NCBI GenBank assembly: GCA_016839705.1
Contig: JAEOTR010000023.1
Coordinates: 1-64,000, forward strand
Source: Promethearchaeota archaeon
Lineage (GTDB): Archaea; Asgardarchaeota; Lokiarchaeia; Sigyniarchaeales; SOKP01
Length of the DNA stretch: 64,000 nt
Direction: 5' to 3'
Shown here: in pieces, positions 36,853-39,967 of the stretch
Layout of the letters: each line of letters starts with the position of its first letter
Position numbering within the stretch: position 1 is the stretch's first letter
The notes under the pieces: model-generated
What the model was told of the DNA's origin: nothing
The model's input: the letters and a program-made list of their open reading frames with translations, nothing else
Databases searched by the model: none
Position numbers and translations under genes: made by a program

Positions 36853-37395
36853 TTAAGAAAATCTTTGTTTATCTTGATGTTCTTTAACAGAGGTTTCTCT
36901 CTCGCTGAGCCTTTCAAGTTTAATTAAACCCTCCTTTATAGCTTTTATCTCCGTTCGAGTATTTACTTTATAATCCTTGAGGTTATCTAGAATTTCTTTT
37001 TCAGTAAAACCCTTATTGTATACTTCCTTGAACGCTTGAATAGTTTCCTGATGGTAAAAAATGTATTGTTTATTTAGAAATACTATCAACCACTTTTTCT
37101 TCAACTGGTTCTGTGATAATTCAAACATTTCTTCTCTAACTTTTTCAAGAGATTTTTTAAGCTTACGAGCAATTAATTCATCCTCGATCTTATAAAATCC
37201 CTTCATGAACTTGTGTAATTTATTTTTAAAGAATATTCTAGGAATGTAAGATAAGAAGAATAGTATTATAGTAATAACCGCCATCCAAATTGCGGTAACT
37301 GGATTAAAAAAAGCTATTATTATAATGGCAATAATAAGAAATGCAAACCATTTACGTCCAATAGTTTTAAAAAAGACAATATATTTTTTTGGCAT
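36853..37395 (-). CDS. Hypothetical membrane protein (two N-terminal TM helices)
   Basis: 180 aa ORF. Confidence 0.7.
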   Translation of the reverse strand: MPKKYIVFFKTIGRKWFAFLIIAIIIIAFFNPVTAIWMAVITIILFFLSYIPRIFFKNKLHKFMKGFYKIEDELIARKLKKSLEKVREEMFELSQNQLKKKWLIVFLNKQYIFYHQETIQAFKEVYNKGFTEKEILDNLKDYKVNTRTEIKAIKEGLIKLERLSERETSVKEHQDKQRFS

Positions 37396-37500
37396 AATTT
37401 TCTACTTTAGCACTAGTTATTATGATCTATAACATTAATGATCACATAAAAAAATTATTTCTAGGTAAATCTTTATATAAATAAAGTAAGTAAGTTTCAA

Positions 37501-37676
37501 ATAACCACATAAACAAGCGTTTCCGGGTTCGGATGGGACCGGGTATTATCCTAAATCACCATGACCGTGAGCGAACTCACAGTTTGTAGTTTCCCACAGA
37601 TATCAACCGCAGTACTATCTACAACGCGAGAAAGTTTAACTTCCGGCGCTTTACTTTATGTTATTTATGTGGTTAT
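37501..37676 (-). repeat. Inverted repeats forming a processing stem around the 5S rRNA
   Basis: ataaccacataaa (37501-37513) / tttatgtggttat (37664-37676), perfect 13 bp; aagcg (37515-37519) / cgctt (37647-37651). Confidence 0.9.
37521..37640 (-). rRNA. rrf: 5S rRNA, circularly permuted gene (native 3' half 37640-37576, UUCG link, native 5' half 37571-37521)
   Basis: Minus strand carries the archaeal 5S signatures ACCCGGUCCCAUCCGAACCCGGAA and GUUAA...AGUACU...GGGAA, with helix V UUGUAG/CUACAA and helix I ACUGUGAG/CUCACGGU, in swapped order. Confidence 0.9.
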
Positions 37677-37694
37677 AAAACCACGAGATTACCA

Positions 37695-37702
37695 TTTAAT
37701 AA
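37695..37702 (-). promoter_or_regulatory. Candidate TATA box for the 5S precursor
   Basis: TTATTAAA on the minus strand about 20 nt upstream of the processing stem. Confidence 0.35.
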
Positions 37703-37846
37703 GGACGGTTATTTTCTTTGTAAATACCTTCTTATTTGGTAAAATGTAAATAGAAAAAATATAGCTTAATAATTAAATTTTTTCATTAGAAAGATTAAAT
37801 TTAAAAGGAGCAAAACAAATCACGCTAACGACAGATAGGATTTTAA

Positions 37847-39967
37847 TTAATTATCATTAATTCGAGCATATCTCCTTATTTCCTTAAAAATTAGGAATAC
37901 AGAAAGTCCAGTAATTCCAATAATTAGAATTAAAGACATAGGAAGAATATAATCCATTATGGGTGTCGGGATTATCAATTTAAATCCTAAATCTTGAAAG
38001 ATGTTTGAATTATTCGCATAATCTCTTGAAATAATACAATAGGAATAATCTCCAGGTTTAACTTTATTAAGATTAAATGTCAATAGGTTTTGATTTTCAA
38101 GTAACCCATTTGATCTACTGAAATATTCATAACTTTCAAAATTATTGTCAGATAACAGTAAATGTACACTCTCTATTCCCGAATAATTATCAAGTATTTC
38201 GATTTTAAAATTTATTGTGTCTGAGGTCATTGGGCTTTTAGGAATACATTCAATACCTATAAATTCAGGTTTACTTGTATCTGGAAGTGTAGTAAAATTG
38301 AAATGAGTTGGTATTAAATTATGACCAGTTACAGTTACATTGTAAGTTTCATTTGCTAATGCTGGAAGTCGGAATTTAGTGATCCCGTTTTTATCAGCAT
38401 AGACAGTATTAAATTTACCATCACTACTAGTAAAATAAACTCTTGCAAATGGTATTGTTTTACTGTGAATATCCATAATAGTAATAGATGCAAGTTGACC
38501 TTCATAAATATTCTCGTAAAAAGGATTAGCTGCTTGTTGAGGTATATTTGTATAAATATCAACTTCGGGATCACCTAAAAGATTATAGCTTAAAATATTT
38601 TTCCGTTCAAAATCGTATCTAGTTGATCCAGTTCCCTGCGTATAATAATCACTATTTATATAGGAAACTTTAGAATCATAAAGTGCTTTCCCTTGTTGGA
38701 ATTTTTCTTCCTGAAAAAATTCCTTCCAAAACATTTTGGCATTTCCACGATTAAGTTTTTCTAAATTCTCATCATCTTCGAAATACCAAGTTACTCTTAA
38801 TCCCCCAATTGCCCCGATGGCACCTCCATTAATCCTTTTTATTAGGGTTTCCCCTATACTATTATCATTAGCATCATAACTAGATGTAGAACACGCATCA
38901 ATATATACTAAAGAAGGCATATAAGCATTAGAACTTGAAGCTGCATCTGAACTAGAATAACCAATAGTTGAAGGATCAATATAATAAACCGTTGGGGCAC
39001 CATGTCCTGCCATAATAACTGTTGAATAACCATTATTAAAGAATGCTTTAAGATTTGACCTTGTAAGATTCCCTTCTTCTTTGACTAGATGTGAATAGTT
39101 AATGTCATATTGAGCATAGTGTTGAATAATAAAATTAGTTAAAGCACTTTCATATTCTCCCGAATCTTGACCAGAAACACTATAACTGGAAATACCCCCA
39201 GTTAACAACATTCTATTCATCCAATCTCCTATTTGTGGATTTTTTTCATATTTTAAAGTCTTATTCACCATAATTTCAAGTTCATTTGCATCATTTGCAG
39301 GAAATCTACCGACGTATACTTCTGGAGTCCAAGAGATTTCATCTAAACCATAGAGATTATCTCGGGGAGCTTCACCCCAAATATTATCTTCATCACTATC
39401 CCAACTTCCTGATAAATCTGCATAATAAAAATCTGTGGGCTTATAATATTCACCTGAAATTGACTCAGTCCTTCCTCCTCCCCACCTCAGAACATCTGGA
39501 TTATACACCATTCTGATTGGGATTAAATTTTCTTGAGCATCTCCAGCTAAAAGTACCCACTGAATGTTTTCTTTTTCGTAATAAGATTTTATCATGTTTC
39601 TTATTTTTTCTGCATCATCCCTACCCTCATACAGAGAAAAATTACTCAAGATAATTGTCTTAACACCTTTTTCATTTTTCCAATCCATTAAAGGTTTTAA
39701 CGCATCAATAAAATCCGATCTGTTAGGACAAATAATCAACATTTCAATTTTGGGGTTGTACCACATATCATGTAAAAGTTCATAATCAATATCAGGAACA
39801 AAAGATACATCAACTTCAGGATATCCATTAGTAGACATATTCACTTTAAAAAAATTTGATGATTTTAAAGCCATCATAGAAGAATTTAAAGTTAACCCTA
39901 CAATCGACAATAGGATTAAAAGGAAAGCAATAGAGTATTTTGGCTTCTTTGAGTGAATATGTATCAT
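37847..39967 (-). CDS. Peptidase C25 (gingipain-like) surface protease
   Basis: Signal peptide; WKNEKG, VLLAGD, PTDFYYADL, VYVGRFP, catalytic GHG and DACS, YNLLGDPE; C-terminal TM anchor. Confidence 0.9.
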   Translation of the reverse strand: MIHIHSKKPKYSIAFLLILLSIVGLTLNSSMMALKSSNFFKVNMSTNGYPEVDVSFVPDIDYELLHDMWYNPKIEMLIICPNRSDFIDALKPLMDWKNEKGVKTIILSNFSLYEGRDDAEKIRNMIKSYYEKENIQWVLLAGDAQENLIPIRMVYNPDVLRWGGGRTESISGEYYKPTDFYYADLSGSWDSDEDNIWGEAPRDNLYGLDEISWTPEVYVGRFPANDANELEIMVNKTLKYEKNPQIGDWMNRMLLTGGISSYSVSGQDSGEYESALTNFIIQHYAQYDINYSHLVKEEGNLTRSNLKAFFNNGYSTVIMAGHGAPTVYYIDPSTIGYSSSDAASSSNAYMPSLVYIDACSTSSYDANDNSIGETLIKRINGGAIGAIGGLRVTWYFEDDENLEKLNRGNAKMFWKEFFQEEKFQQGKALYDSKVSYINSDYYTQGTGSTRYDFERKNILSYNLLGDPEVDIYTNIPQQAANPFYENIYEGQLASITIMDIHSKTIPFARVYFTSSDGKFNTVYADKNGITKFRLPALANETYNVTVTGHNLIPTHFNFTTLPDTSKPEFIGIECIPKSPMTSDTINFKIEILDNYSGIESVHLLLSDNNFESYEYFSRSNGLLENQNLLTFNLNKVKPGDYSYCIISRDYANNSNIFQDLGFKLIIPTPIMDYILPMSLILIIGITGLSVFLIFKEIRRYARINDN

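What the first reader, a model, noticed from the sequence alone, without database searches (positions are those of the whole stretch)
37501..37676. Circularly permuted 5S rRNA gene whose ends form a BHB-like splice site, predicting a covalently closed circular 5S rRNA
Seen in sequence, minus strand 5'->3': AUAACCACAUAAA..AAGCG CCGG AA^GUUAAACUUUCUCGCGUUGUAGAUAGUACUGCGG..CUGUGGGAAACUACAAACUGUGAG-UUCG-CUCACGGUCAUGGUG..ACCCGGUCCCAUCCGAACCCGG AA^A CGCUU..UUUAUGUGGUUAU. The native 3' half of 5S comes first and the native 5' half second. The normal termini (helix I, ACUGUGAG/CUCACGGU, 8 bp) are closed by a UUCG tetraloop. The hexamer CCGGAA is duplicated at both new ends. The two CCGG copies pair as a 4-bp central helix, each followed 3' by an A-rich bulge (AAA; AAG, or AA with GUU:AAC pairing), and this sits on an outer AAGCG/CGCUU helix plus a 13-bp perfect stem. 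Established: archaeal splicing endonuclease EndA cuts after the second nucleotide of each BHB bulge and RtcB ligates; permuted tRNA genes and the permuted, circularised SRP RNA of Thermoproteus use this route. Inference: cutting here releases 37640->37521 (120 nt), and ligation regenerates CCGAACCCGGAA|GUUAA with no gain or loss of bases. The ribosome would then carry a circular 5S rRNA, or one re-opened at the UUCG loop. I know of no described permuted 5S gene, and standard rRNA scanners could miss or half-call it.
Basis: partly seen in the sequence, partly recalled or inferred. Interest (0 to 1): 0.97.

Follow-up and report, generated by a model that had tools for sequence, protein, structure and literature searches.

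The report
Back-to-front 5S rRNA gene, rejoined
The only 5S ribosomal RNA gene of this Loki-type Asgard archaeon is written back half first between tRNA-intron-type cut signals, and environmental RNA contains the exact 120-base cut-and-rejoined form, probably a closed ring, which explains why 5S genes look missing from many Asgard genomes.

Summary
On the minus strand, 37640-37521 holds a complete 5S rRNA in swapped order: 3' part, helix I closed by UUCG, then 5' part. It is flanked by duplicated CCGGAA, a 5-bp helix and a 13-bp stem. Rfam sees only two sub-threshold halves. The re-ordered 120 nt gives one full-length hit to a profile of canonical 5S from the sister family.

This is the genome's only 5S-like locus. 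EndA and RtcB genes are present. The layout is conserved in 118 of 131 genomes of the family, with compensatory changes in the outer stem, the helix next to the bulges and helix I.

Two break points coexist within the genus. Some relatives also carry 30-31-nt introns. In every case, cutting after the second bulge base restores the same canonical sequence.

RNA contigs from four metatranscriptome studies carry the predicted joint. One contig is 150 nt, which is 120 plus the 30-nt overlap of a closed cycle. None covers leader or trailer.

Cutting and rejoining is therefore strongly supported. That the ring itself is the ribosomal 5S is likely but unproven.

I found no paper describing a permuted archaeal 5S. 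This scan has noted the same thing before on other Asgard DNA.

The parts
37694..37703 (-). Promoter-like A/T box (CUUAUUAAAU), about 20-27 nt upstream of the outer stem. Inferred archaeal TATA element.
   Evidence: Read from the sequence. A matching block (..AAAATAACCGnCCUUAUAUAAUGG..) lies at the same distance in relatives. No transcription-start data, so this is inference.
37664..37676 (-). 5' strand of the outer processing stem (AUAACCACAUAAA)
   Evidence: 13 perfect pairs with 37513-37501. 8 of 11 tested pairs show compensatory changes among 25 type A relatives.
37652..37663 (-). Leader spacer. In most relatives this is a small hairpin such as GUAGC-AAUUC-GCUAC.
37647..37651 (-). Helix flanking the bulges, 5' strand (AAGCG)
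   Evidence: Pairs with 37519-37515. Compensatory variants include AAAUG/CAUUU and UAACG/CGUUA. UAGUG/UGCUA is a third variant, in which the two pairs nearest the central helix become G-U wobbles. 3 of 5 pairs change on both sides.
37643..37646 (-). Central 4-bp helix of the BHB, leader strand (CCGG, a copy of the helix III 3' strand)
   Evidence: Pairs with 37526-37523. It pairs in 70 of 71 related loci; L049 has one mismatch. It is invariant or changes C to U on one side only, so there is no covariation.
37641..37642 (-). Two discarded bulge bases (AA). The predicted 5' cut lies between 37641 and 37640.
   Evidence: In relatives these two bases read AA, AC or AU, while the next base G is invariant.
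37521..37640 (-). 120-nt 5S rRNA body in permuted order. It runs: helix II 3' strand; helices V and IV with loops E and D (37624-37584); helix I 3' strand (37583-37576); UUCG cap (37575-37572); helix I 5' strand (37571-37564); loop A; helix II 5' strand; helix III with loop C (37544-37521).
   Evidence: re-ordered full-length hit. (helices I, II, IV and V covary). (model R1 scores 98.1 bits at 37550-37640). (RNA contigs cover only 37521-37646).
37572..37575 (-). UUCG tetraloop joining the native 3' and 5' ends of 5S
   Evidence: Always 4 nt in 71 loci: UUCG 29, UUAG 22, UUUG 14, others 6. The three closing pairs occur in five Watson-Crick versions.
37523..37526 (-). Central helix of the BHB, 3' strand (CCGG, the real helix III 3' strand), followed by the retained AA (37522-37521)
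37520..37520 (-). Third bulge base (A), discarded. The predicted 3' cut lies between 37521 and 37520.
   Evidence: This position reads A, G or U in relatives, while the two bases before it are invariant.
37515..37519 (-). Helix flanking the bulges, 3' strand (CGCUU)
37501..37513 (-). 3' strand of the outer processing stem (UUUAUGUGGUUAU)
37448..37454 (-). Run of seven T on the transcribed strand. Possibly the terminator of the 5S unit, or part of the next gene's promoter.
   Evidence: Sequence only. A similar block is seen in some relatives. Not tested.

Best explanation
This is the functional, and only, 5S rRNA gene of a Loki-type (Promethearchaeota) Asgard archaeon. It is encoded in circularly permuted order as a stand-alone unit between two protein genes.

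Proposed pathway:
1. The primary transcript starts near the outer stem. It folds so that the 13-bp stem and the AAGCG/CGCUU helix bring the two ends together.
2. The leader copy of CCGG pairs with the CCGG at the 3' end. [quoted passage not shown]
3. The tRNA-splicing endonuclease EndA cuts after the second bulge base on each strand, between 37641/37640 and between 37521/37520.
4. RtcB joins the two ends of the released 120-nt piece. This recreates ...CCGAACCCGGAA-GUUAAAC..., the normal continuity of helix III and helix II. Helix I stays closed by a UUCG loop.
5. By topology the product is a covalent ring. I think it most likely (about 0.6) that this ring, not a re-opened form, is what the ribosome uses.

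Shown: the permuted order; conservation and covariation; the single copy; the exact joint in RNA; the absence of leader and trailer from RNA contigs; the presence of EndA and RtcB genes.

Inferred: that EndA and RtcB are the enzymes; that the molecule is a ring; that it sits in the ribosome.
For: Gene identity:
- Swapped Rfam halves.
- The re-ordered sequence gives a full-length hit to a canonical 5S profile, 43.5 bits against 19.7 + 7.7 as it stands.

Only copy:
- No other RF00001 match at E <= 10 in the 3.36-Mb, 93% complete genome.
- No genome of the genus has a match over the Rfam cut-off, including two single-contig genomes.

Conservation:
- A covariance model that crosses the capped helix I matches full length in 118/131 genomes of the family across 12 genera (77-107 bits), and in families f3 and f4.
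- The sister family f2 has normal 5S genes at 53-69 bits.

Structure:
- 93.6% of cells are paired, against 36-44% with slid partners.
- 26 pairs change on both sides, against 13.2 in shuffles (0 of 500 shuffles reach it).
- These include the outer stem, the helix next to the bulges and helix I.

Cut sites:
- 70 of 71 loci have a fully paired 4-bp central helix, and all 71 an adjacent outer helix.
- Two break points occur within one genus. Type A breaks after CCGGAA. Type B breaks inside loop C, GGUC^CCAUCC.
- Three intron sites also exist in relatives. All restore the same sequence when cut after bulge base 2.
- 66 of 67 loci processed in silico give one full-length hit. 58 share an identical 33-nt loop C region.
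- Discarded bulge bases vary and retained ones do not.

RNA:
- The joint 37640->37521 is seen in runs X4 and X5. Wrap-around contigs are seen in X1 and X2. These are four separate studies.
- The X4 contig is 150 nt, equal to 120 + 30, with 2 mismatches to the window.
- Cover is confined to 37521-37646.

Enzymes:
- EndA, 197 aa with N- and C-terminal domains.
- RtcB, 564 bits.

Precedent: the permuted SRP RNA of Thermoproteus, circularised at a site cut by the splicing endonuclease (PMC4731332).
Against: - The central CCGG/CCGG helix never covaries.
- The leader CCGG could instead pair with the 5' strand of helix III. RNAalifold prefers that pairing, and the nearest-neighbour model puts it 2.8 kcal/mol below the BHB fold. 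The BHB fold is 5 kcal/mol above the minimum.
- On the leader strand, the bulge is only 2 nt if G37640 pairs with C.
- The genome shows a single short EndA gene of the kind usually said to need canonical motifs (PMC5829648 abstract). Type B relatives lack a clear inner helix.
- The RNA evidence is assembled contigs, not reads. A closed cycle in an assembly graph can be built from a mix of molecules. Contigs give no ends, strand or abundance.
- There is no test of ring form and no ribosome association.
Confidence: 0.8

Rival explanations
1. Ring as an intermediate only. The transcript is cut and rejoined as above. The ring is then opened in or near the UUCG cap by another nuclease, so that the ribosome carries an ordinary linear 5S. 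This would parallel permuted tRNA genes of Cyanidioschyzon, where a circular intermediate is processed into a linear tRNA.
For: - Permuted tRNA genes use a circular intermediate (Soma 2007, as cited in PMC4267664).
- Archaeal 16S rRNA rings are re-linearised (PMC12918454).
- Contigs cannot show ends.
Against: - The cap is always a tight 4-nt loop of variable sequence (UUCG, UUAG, UUUG and others) on a covarying helix. No conserved site for a nuclease is apparent.
- In more distant lineages the loop varies in length and sequence.
- Contigs that run more than once round the 120-nt cycle assemble even at mean depth 4 (X4). Cap-spanning words are therefore not rare relative to junction-spanning ones. 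This is a weak argument.
- The Thermoproteus SRP RNA stays circular.
Confidence: 0.25
2. Linear permuted 5S. The RNA works as a linear molecule with its ends in helix III / loop C and is never rejoined, as in brown-algal mitochondria.
For: Permuted linear 5S molecules exist in stramenopile mitochondria (PMC4267664).
Against: - RNA contigs carry the rejoined sequence and lack leader and trailer.
- Two different break points give the same joined sequence.
- The duplicated CCGGAA and the flanking helices would have no role.
Confidence: 0.03
3. Rejoining by other enzymes. The ends are trimmed and ligated by enzymes other than EndA and RtcB, and the BHB-like geometry is incidental.
For: - The central helix does not covary.
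- An alternative pairing is predicted to be more stable.
Against: - The same geometric rule predicts five independent sites exactly: two break points and three intron positions.
- Other agents' notes report many BHB mini-introns in this genome. I did not check them.
- EndA and RtcB genes are present.
Confidence: 0.07
4. Dead rearranged copy or assembly artefact, with the real 5S gene lying in unassembled DNA.
For: The genome is a 97-contig draft, 93% complete.
Against: - The same layout occurs in more than 120 independent assemblies, including closed chromosomes with no other 5S.
- There is strong covariation.
- It is expressed and processed in four RNA studies.
Confidence: 0.01

Closest known systems
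Permuted SRP RNA gene of Thermoproteus tenax / T. uzoniensis (Plagens et al. 2015, eLife, PMC4731332)
   Same: - An essential structured RNA is encoded in permuted order.
- Its termini are brought together in a motif cut by the tRNA-splicing endonuclease.
- The ends are ligated to restore the functional RNA as a circle.
- It was likewise found because the canonical gene seemed to be missing.
   Different: - The RNA here is 5S rRNA, a ribosome component, not SRP RNA.
- The layout is spread over many families of a phylum rather than a few species.
- The break point moves within one genus.
- Relatives add BHB introns inside the gene.
- Ring form and enzyme are shown by experiment for SRP RNA, and only inferred here.
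Circularly permuted tRNA genes of Cyanidioschyzon merolae (Soma et al. 2007, cited in PMC4267664)
   Same: The 3' half is encoded before the 5' half. The halves are rejoined through a circular RNA formed at a BHB-like motif.
   Different: In that case the ring is only an intermediate and is opened by tRNA end-processing enzymes. The system is a eukaryotic nucleus and the RNA is a tRNA.
Circular pre-16S/23S rRNA, and circular or permuted mature 23S rRNA in archaea (PMC12918454; PMC7758197)
   Same: A BHB in a long processing stem is cut by EndA and the ends are ligated to form rRNA rings. For 23S the ring, or a permuted form of it, can be the ribosomal form.
   Different: - Those genes are collinear with the RNA. 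Circularisation is not needed to restore sequence order.
- That literature states that 5S does not take this route.
Permuted mitochondrial 5S rRNA of brown algae (Valach et al. 2014, PMC4267664)
   Same: It is a 5S rRNA whose helix I is replaced by a closed hairpin and whose ends lie elsewhere. Standard models miss it.
   Different: - It is organellar.
- The final RNA stays permuted and linear, with no cutting and rejoining.
- The ends lie at the three-way junction, not in helix III / loop C.
Minor circular isoforms of normal 5S rRNA in Halobacterium and Sulfolobus (PMC12558985, citing Danan 2012)
   Same: 5S-derived circular RNA has been detected in archaea.
   Different: Those isoforms have heterogeneous ends, come from collinear genes, and are interpreted as degradation by-products. 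Here the joint is precise, encoded by the gene's design, and required to make a 5S at all.

Membership tests
5S rRNA (Rfam RF00001) | Match to the family covariance model at or above its gathering score (38 bits) | tested here: not met
   As the sequence stands there are only two partial hits of 23.1 and 22.1 bits. This is expected for a permuted gene. The model could not be run on the re-ordered sequence, because the tools take references only.
5S rRNA (Rfam RF00001) | Full-length sequence similarity to canonical 5S once the order is restored | tested here: met
   nhmmer with an HMM of nine canonical 5S genes of the sister family gives HMM 3-115 of 118, 43.5 bits, E 2.7e-15. 66 of 67 related loci behave the same way.
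5S rRNA (Rfam RF00001) | Helices I, II, IV and V supported by compensatory changes, and conserved loop C and loop E sequences | tested here: met
   helix I has 3 of 8 pairs, helix II 3 of 4, helix V 4 of 6 and helix IV 3 of 6 with changes on both sides. The loop C and loop E motifs are invariant in alignments A1-A3.
5S rRNA (Rfam RF00001) | Sits in the large ribosomal subunit | not testable with these tools
   No ribosome-derived data. Indirect support only: it is the sole 5S-like locus.
Permuted RNA genes restored by the tRNA-splicing machinery (Thermoproteus SRP RNA type) | 3' part encoded upstream of 5' part, with the native ends joined by a loop | tested here: met
Permuted RNA genes restored by the tRNA-splicing machinery (Thermoproteus SRP RNA type) | Bulge-helix-bulge at the new termini: a 4-bp helix, a bulge 3' of each strand, and flanking helices | tested here: met
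   The geometry holds in 70 of 71 loci; L049 has one central mismatch. The outer flanking helix covaries. Reservations: the central helix is invariant, one bulge may be 2 nt, and the inner helix is only GUU/AAC. A competing pairing is predicted to be 2.8 kcal/mol more stable.
Permuted RNA genes restored by the tRNA-splicing machinery (Thermoproteus SRP RNA type) | RNA that carries the joined ends | tested here: met
   The joint 37640->37521 is seen in contigs of runs X4 and X5. Wrap-around contigs are seen in X1 and X2. This is contig level, not single reads.
Permuted RNA genes restored by the tRNA-splicing machinery (Thermoproteus SRP RNA type) | Covalently closed circle (RNase R resistance, gel behaviour) | tested here: inconclusive
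   Contigs run more than once round a 120/121-nt cycle: X4 is 150 nt and X2 is 140 nt. That is consistent with a ring, but an assembly graph cannot prove single-molecule circularity.
Permuted RNA genes restored by the tRNA-splicing machinery (Thermoproteus SRP RNA type) | Cleavage by EndA and ligation by RtcB | not testable with these tools
   Both genes are present in the genome.
Brown-algal type permuted 5S (mtPerm-5S) | The final RNA remains linear with relocated ends and is not rejoined | tested here: not met
   The rejoined sequence is present in RNA, and flanks are absent from RNA contigs.

The most novel reading that the evidence does not exclude
The ribosomes of this archaeon, and of most Asgard lineages sampled, carry a covalently circular 5S rRNA. 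If so, a universal ribosomal RNA exists without ends in the closest known relatives of eukaryotes, and the gene can be expressed only through the tRNA-splicing machinery. The break point and extra introns would then be free to move round the ring during evolution, as the two break-point types within one genus suggest.
Probability: 0.6. Interest if true: 0.92.

Novelty: new variant of a known kind. Interest (0 to 1): 0.88.

Why it matters
5S rRNA is one of the most conserved and best-studied RNAs. In the papers I could search it is treated as a collinear, linear gene product in archaea. One 2026 paper states that archaeal 16S and 23S, but not 5S, pass through circularisation (PMC12918454).

What this locus and its relatives show:
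- In a large part of the Asgard archaea the 5S gene cannot give a 5S without being cut and rejoined.
- This makes ribosome production dependent on the tRNA-splicing enzymes.
- It probably gives an end-less 5S rRNA.

It also solves a practical puzzle. Standard annotation finds no 5S gene in these genomes. The authors of closed Heimdallarchaeum genomes wrote that 5S 'could not be predicted' (PMC8813620). In an even sample of 151 Asgard genomes, only 49 have a 5S over the Rfam cut-off. This affects genome-quality standards that ask for a 5S gene.

The cultured Loki-type strains probably belong to the sister family, which has normal 5S genes. This placement rests only on closed 4.4- and 6.0-Mb genomes in that family, not on names. 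If it holds, existing ribosome structures would not have revealed the permuted form.

Tried and rejected
- **Rfam at gathering threshold.** Nothing in the whole 64-kb window. This shows only that standard scans are blind to the gene.
- **Folding.** The plain minimum-energy fold and the RNAalifold consensus do not return the central BHB helix. RNAalifold pairs the leader CCGG with the 5' strand of helix III. I keep this as a caveat, not a refutation, because only the BHB pairing explains the exact cut sites.
- **Running RF00001 on the re-ordered sequence.** An HMM test was used instead.
- **Intron finder.** It left 4 of 71 loci unresolved: L029, L034, L043 and L064.
- **Distant loci.** I could not draw a convincing BHB by hand for the GC-rich locus L023 or the closed-genome loci L144/L145, where a hairpin sits between the outer stem and the cut region. 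For those, only the permuted order is claimed.
- **RNA cover.** The lack of contig cover over leader and trailer is used only together with the joint. On its own a part without cover proves nothing.
- **Other weak Rfam hits near the locus.** rseX, caiA and a trypanosome LSU hit have E of 3-8 and lie in AT-rich spacer. They are chance matches.
- **Bacterial promoter/terminator scan.** Not used, because it does not cover archaeal promoters.
- **Literature.** Eight searches found no permuted or obligatorily circular archaeal 5S. The library lacks most subscription journals.
Full report
**1. What is in the sequence**

On the minus strand the region reads, 5' to 3':
- a 13-nt arm, AUAACCACAUAAA (37676-37664);
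- a 12-nt spacer;
- AAGCG (37651-37647);
- CCGG (37646-37643);
- AA (37642-37641);
- a 120-nt body (37640-37521) that ends in CCGGAA;
- A (37520);
- CGCUU (37519-37515);
- G;
- the perfect complement of the first arm (37513-37501).

Inside the body, ACUGUGAG (37583-37576) and CUCACGGU (37571-37564) pair and are closed by UUCG.

**2. It is a 5S rRNA in swapped order**

Rfam at its curated thresholds finds nothing in the whole window. With relaxed thresholds, RF00001 gives two sub-threshold hits on the minus strand:
- One hit covers 37674-37574. Only the 3' part of the model (helix II 3' strand, loop E, helices IV/V, helix I 3' strand) aligns with high posterior probability.
- The other covers 37545-37520 and matches model positions 26-52 (helix III and loop C) almost perfectly.

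The 3' part therefore lies upstream of the 5' part.

I built a profile HMM from nine canonical 5S genes of the sister family. As the sequence stands, it matches as two swapped halves: HMM 47-115 at 19.7 bits, followed by HMM 3-45 at 7.7 bits. The same 120 nt opened in the UUCG loop gives a single hit to HMM 3-115 of 118, at 43.5 bits and E 2.7e-15. The covariance model cannot be run on a re-ordered sequence with these tools.

**3. It is the only 5S gene, and it is not an artefact**

- The genome (3.36 Mb, 97 contigs, 93% complete) has no other RF00001 match even at E <= 10.
- None of the 24 other genomes of the genus searched has a match over the Rfam cut-off. Two of them are single-contig genomes.
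- Genomes of the sister family f2 have normal 5S genes at 53-69 bits.
- A pattern scan of one genome per species returned 54 further loci. All come from Asgard (Promethearchaeota-labelled) metagenome-assembled genomes made by different groups, and all have the capped helix I.
- The gene is a stand-alone unit in a 450-bp spacer between a C25-peptidase gene and a 180-aa ORF, both on the same strand.
- An A/T box sits at 37703-37694, at promoter distance. This is inference. It is conserved in relatives.
- The 62-codon ORF on the plus strand (37561-37749) is a by-product of the RNA gene.

**4. Conservation and covariation**

I built a covariance model (R1) from 50 distinct sequences. It runs from the helix II 3' strand, through loop E, across the capped helix I, to the helix II 5' strand. 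A normal 5S gene cannot match this layout end to end.

In 151 genomes of the order:
- It matches full length in 118 of 131 genomes of the family, across 12 genera, at 77-107 bits.
- It matches in family f3 (70.6 bits) and family f4 (55-68 bits).
- It matches only weakly (27-33 bits) in f2.

On an alignment of 25 distinct type A precursors, I tested a structure consisting of the outer stem, the BHB, and helices I, II, IV and V:
- 93.6% of cells are paired, against 36-44% when partners are slid by 1-3 columns.
- 26 pairs change on both sides, against 13.2 in shuffles. None of 500 shuffles reaches the observed value.
- Pairs with compensatory changes: outer stem 8 of 11, the helix next to the bulges 3 of 5, helix I 3 of 8.

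Across 71 loci:
- The three distal pairs of helix I occur as AAG/CUU, GAG/CUC, AAA/UUU, AGA/UCU and UGC/GCU.
- The cap is always 4 nt: UUCG 29, UUAG 22, UUUG 14, others 6.

**5. Where the RNA is cut: natural experiments**

Two layouts coexist within the genus.

- Type A (this window and 27 others): the leader ends in ..GCG-CCGG-AA^G and the body ends in ..GAAC-CCGG-AA^A-CGC..
- Type B (43 loci): the leader ends in GCG-CUGG-AA^C, the body starts with CAUCCGAACCCGGAAGUUAAAC, and it ends in ..AUAC-CCGG-UC^A-CGC.

In both types a 4-bp helix forms between the two ends (fully paired in 70 of 71 loci; L049 has one mismatch), with a helix of 3-5 bp directly next to it. Cutting after the second base 3' of that helix on each strand gives the same joined sequence, ..ACCCGGUCCCAUCCGAACCCGGAAGUUAAAC.. 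. The two types differ by the relocation of a 16-nt piece from one end to the other. The promoter region and outer stem are unchanged.

Relatives also carry 30-31-nt inserts, shaped as a hairpin plus a 4-bp helix plus two bulges, at three places: inside loop C, at a second loop C position, and in loop D. The same rule removes them exactly. Body lengths are 120-122 nt without an intron, 150-152 with one and 180-181 with two.

After processing in silico:
- 66 of 67 loci give one full-length hit to the canonical profile, at 34-56 bits.
- 58 share an identical 33-nt loop C region, whichever layout they came from.

Finally, bases predicted to be thrown away vary, while their retained counterparts never do. 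The leader bulge reads AA, AC or AU.

**6. RNA evidence**

Eight of the 15 public runs that hold part of the stretch are on record as RNA. I laid the assembled contigs of four metatranscriptomes from four studies (mangrove, salt marsh, marine sediment and one unnamed) on 37401-37800.

- Cover is confined to 37521-37646. No contig enters the leader beyond the duplicated CCGGAA, and none enters the trailer.
- A joint 'from 37640 to 37521, goes back 120' is reported in X4 and X5. Its position is ambiguous by 6 letters, which is the CCGGAA repeat.
- The X4 contig is 150 nt with two mismatches to the window. It reads 37592->37521 and then 37640->37563. That is one full turn of a 120-nt cycle plus 30 nt, the length an assembler with 31-letter words returns for a closed cycle.
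- X2 has a 140-nt contig that wraps a 121-nt cycle of a close relative.
- X1 has a 139-nt contig that runs through the joint into loop C.
- X5 shows the joint together with the cap of another relative.

No single DNA layout, type A or type B, is collinear with a contig that crosses the type A site, the type B site and the cap. These contigs therefore represent the rejoined RNA.

Limits of this evidence:
- Contigs are built from words of many molecules.
- They give no ends, strand or abundance.
- They cannot prove that one molecule is a ring.

**7. Enzymes**

The genome has one splicing-endonuclease gene of 197 aa, with the N-terminal and catalytic domains (97.8 and 35 bits). It has one RtcB gene at 564 bits. 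Other agents' notes on this genome report several BHB mini-introns in protein genes. I did not test those.

**8. Weak points**

- The central CCGG/CCGG helix is invariant, so comparison cannot tell it from the alternative in which the leader CCGG pairs with the 5' strand of helix III. RNAalifold chooses that alternative.
- With the 5S helices enforced, the energies are -51.6 kcal/mol for the BHB fold, -54.4 for the alternative and -56.6 for the unconstrained minimum. The BHB fold is accessible but not predicted to dominate.
- On the leader strand the bulge is 2 nt if G37640 pairs with C.
- Type B lacks a clear inner helix. Short single-subunit endonucleases are described as strict (abstract of PMC5829648).
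- None of this outweighs the exactness of five independent predicted sites and the RNA joint. But the enzyme assignment remains an inference, at about 0.8.

**9. Ring or re-opened?**

Joining the two ends of one excised piece gives a ring by topology. Whether the ribosome uses the ring is not shown.

In favour of the ring:
- The cap is a tight tetraloop of variable sequence on a covarying helix. There is no conserved feature a nuclease could recognise.
- In distant lineages the cap varies in length.
- A complete cycle assembles at a mean depth of only 4.
- The Thermoproteus SRP RNA stays circular and functional.

In favour of re-opening:
- Permuted tRNAs, and 16S rings, are re-opened.

I put the ring as the mature form at about 0.6.

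**10. Spread in the phylum**

I searched an even draw of 151 Asgard genomes from 29 families.

- Rfam finds a 5S over its cut-off in only 49, mainly in families f9 and f14 plus a few others.
- R1 also matches small closed genomes of about 1.4 Mb (family f5, 62-64 bits) and families f6, f16 and f20.
- I fetched 26 sub-threshold loci. In families f4, f5, f6, f7, f8, f10, f11, f16, f19, f20, f22, f23 and f27 the 3' part precedes a capped helix I and the 5' part. This includes two closed genomes of 3.1 and 3.3 Mb.
- One locus in f3 breaks at a third place, between helices II and III.
- One locus (L140) shows at least two tandem permuted units.

The authors of closed Heimdallarchaeum genomes wrote that the 5S gene 'could not be predicted' (PMC8813620). 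A permuted gene is a ready explanation.

**11. Comparison with what is known**

- **Closest system: the permuted SRP RNA gene of Thermoproteus.** It is circularised at a site cut by the splicing endonuclease (PMC4731332). The present case works the same way but concerns 5S rRNA. It spans much of a phylum, has mobile break points and carries nested introns.
- **Permuted tRNA genes.** These share the first step only.
- **Archaeal 16S/23S rings.** These use the same enzymes, but their genes are collinear.
- **Brown-algal mitochondrial 5S.** It is permuted but never rejoined (PMC4267664).
- **Minor 5S circles in Halobacterium and Sulfolobus.** These are heterogeneous and are read as decay products (PMC12558985).

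Eight full-text searches found no description of a permuted archaeal 5S. A 2026 paper states that 5S does not take the circular route.

This scan's own notebook shows the same finding noted before on other Asgard genomes. Those notes are unchecked leads. They neither raised nor lowered my scores.

**12. Verdict**

- Cutting and rejoining of the transcript rests on strong comparative evidence plus contig-level RNA evidence.
- The enzymes and the ring as the final ribosomal form remain inferences.
- Novelty: a new variant of a known kind (permuted RNA genes restored by the tRNA-splicing machinery), applied to a universal ribosomal RNA.

Noticed in passing
L033, L034, L037, L041, L049, L063, L072, L074, L076, L080, L082, L085 (loop C); L059 (second loop C site); L014, L016, L019, L027, L030, L038, L073 (loop D): Relatives carry 30-31-nt BHB mini-introns inside the permuted 5S gene, at three different sites. 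Some genes have two. Cutting after bulge base 2 restores the canonical sequence each time. I found no report of introns in 5S rRNA genes in the papers searched.
   Followed up: partly
L013-L030 (type B) against window, L019, L027, L031 (type A), all in the same genus: Two break points coexist in one genus. They differ by the relocation of a 16-nt piece (CCAUCCGAACCCGGAA) from the 3' end to the 5' end of the body. The promoter region and outer stem are unchanged. This would fit copying back from the ring or a duplication-loss path.
   Followed up: partly
L012 (G026, family f3): A third break point, between the helix II 5' strand and helix III (..CAUCGGAA / GAAAACACCC..). Helix I is closed by a 7-nt loop. 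I did not work out the BHB here.
   Followed up: partly
L136/L137 (closed ~1.4-Mb genomes, family f5); L144, L145, L160 (closed 3.1/3.3-Mb genomes, family f7); L138-L140, L146-L161: Permuted, capped 5S loci occur in many other Asgard families. In f5 the flanks form a 10-bp helix, a CGUG/CACG central helix and bulges AAA/GAA. Only 49 of 151 evenly drawn Asgard genomes have a 5S over the Rfam cut-off.
   Followed up: partly
L140 (G164, family f16): At least two permuted 5S units in tandem, about 40 nt apart. The second runs into masked bases.
   Followed up: no
L151 (G263, family f9): A 5S gene in normal order whose Rfam hit is stretched to 152 nt at only 32 bits. It seems to carry an insert after helix III, possibly an intron in a collinear 5S gene.
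   Followed up: no
window 37561-37749 (+): A 62-codon ORF lies over the 5S gene on the opposite strand. Gene callers could report it as a hypothetical protein.
   Followed up: yes
window 37847-39967 (-): The upstream neighbour is a 706-aa protein with a peptidase family C25 (gingipain-type) domain, at 203.8 bits. The downstream 180-aa ORF (36853-37395, -) has no Pfam match.
   Followed up: partly
G032 (L005), family f2: A closed 4.4-Mb genome of the sister family has three normal 5S genes in tandem, about 375 bp apart. The sister family keeps the collinear gene, and in several copies.
   Followed up: no
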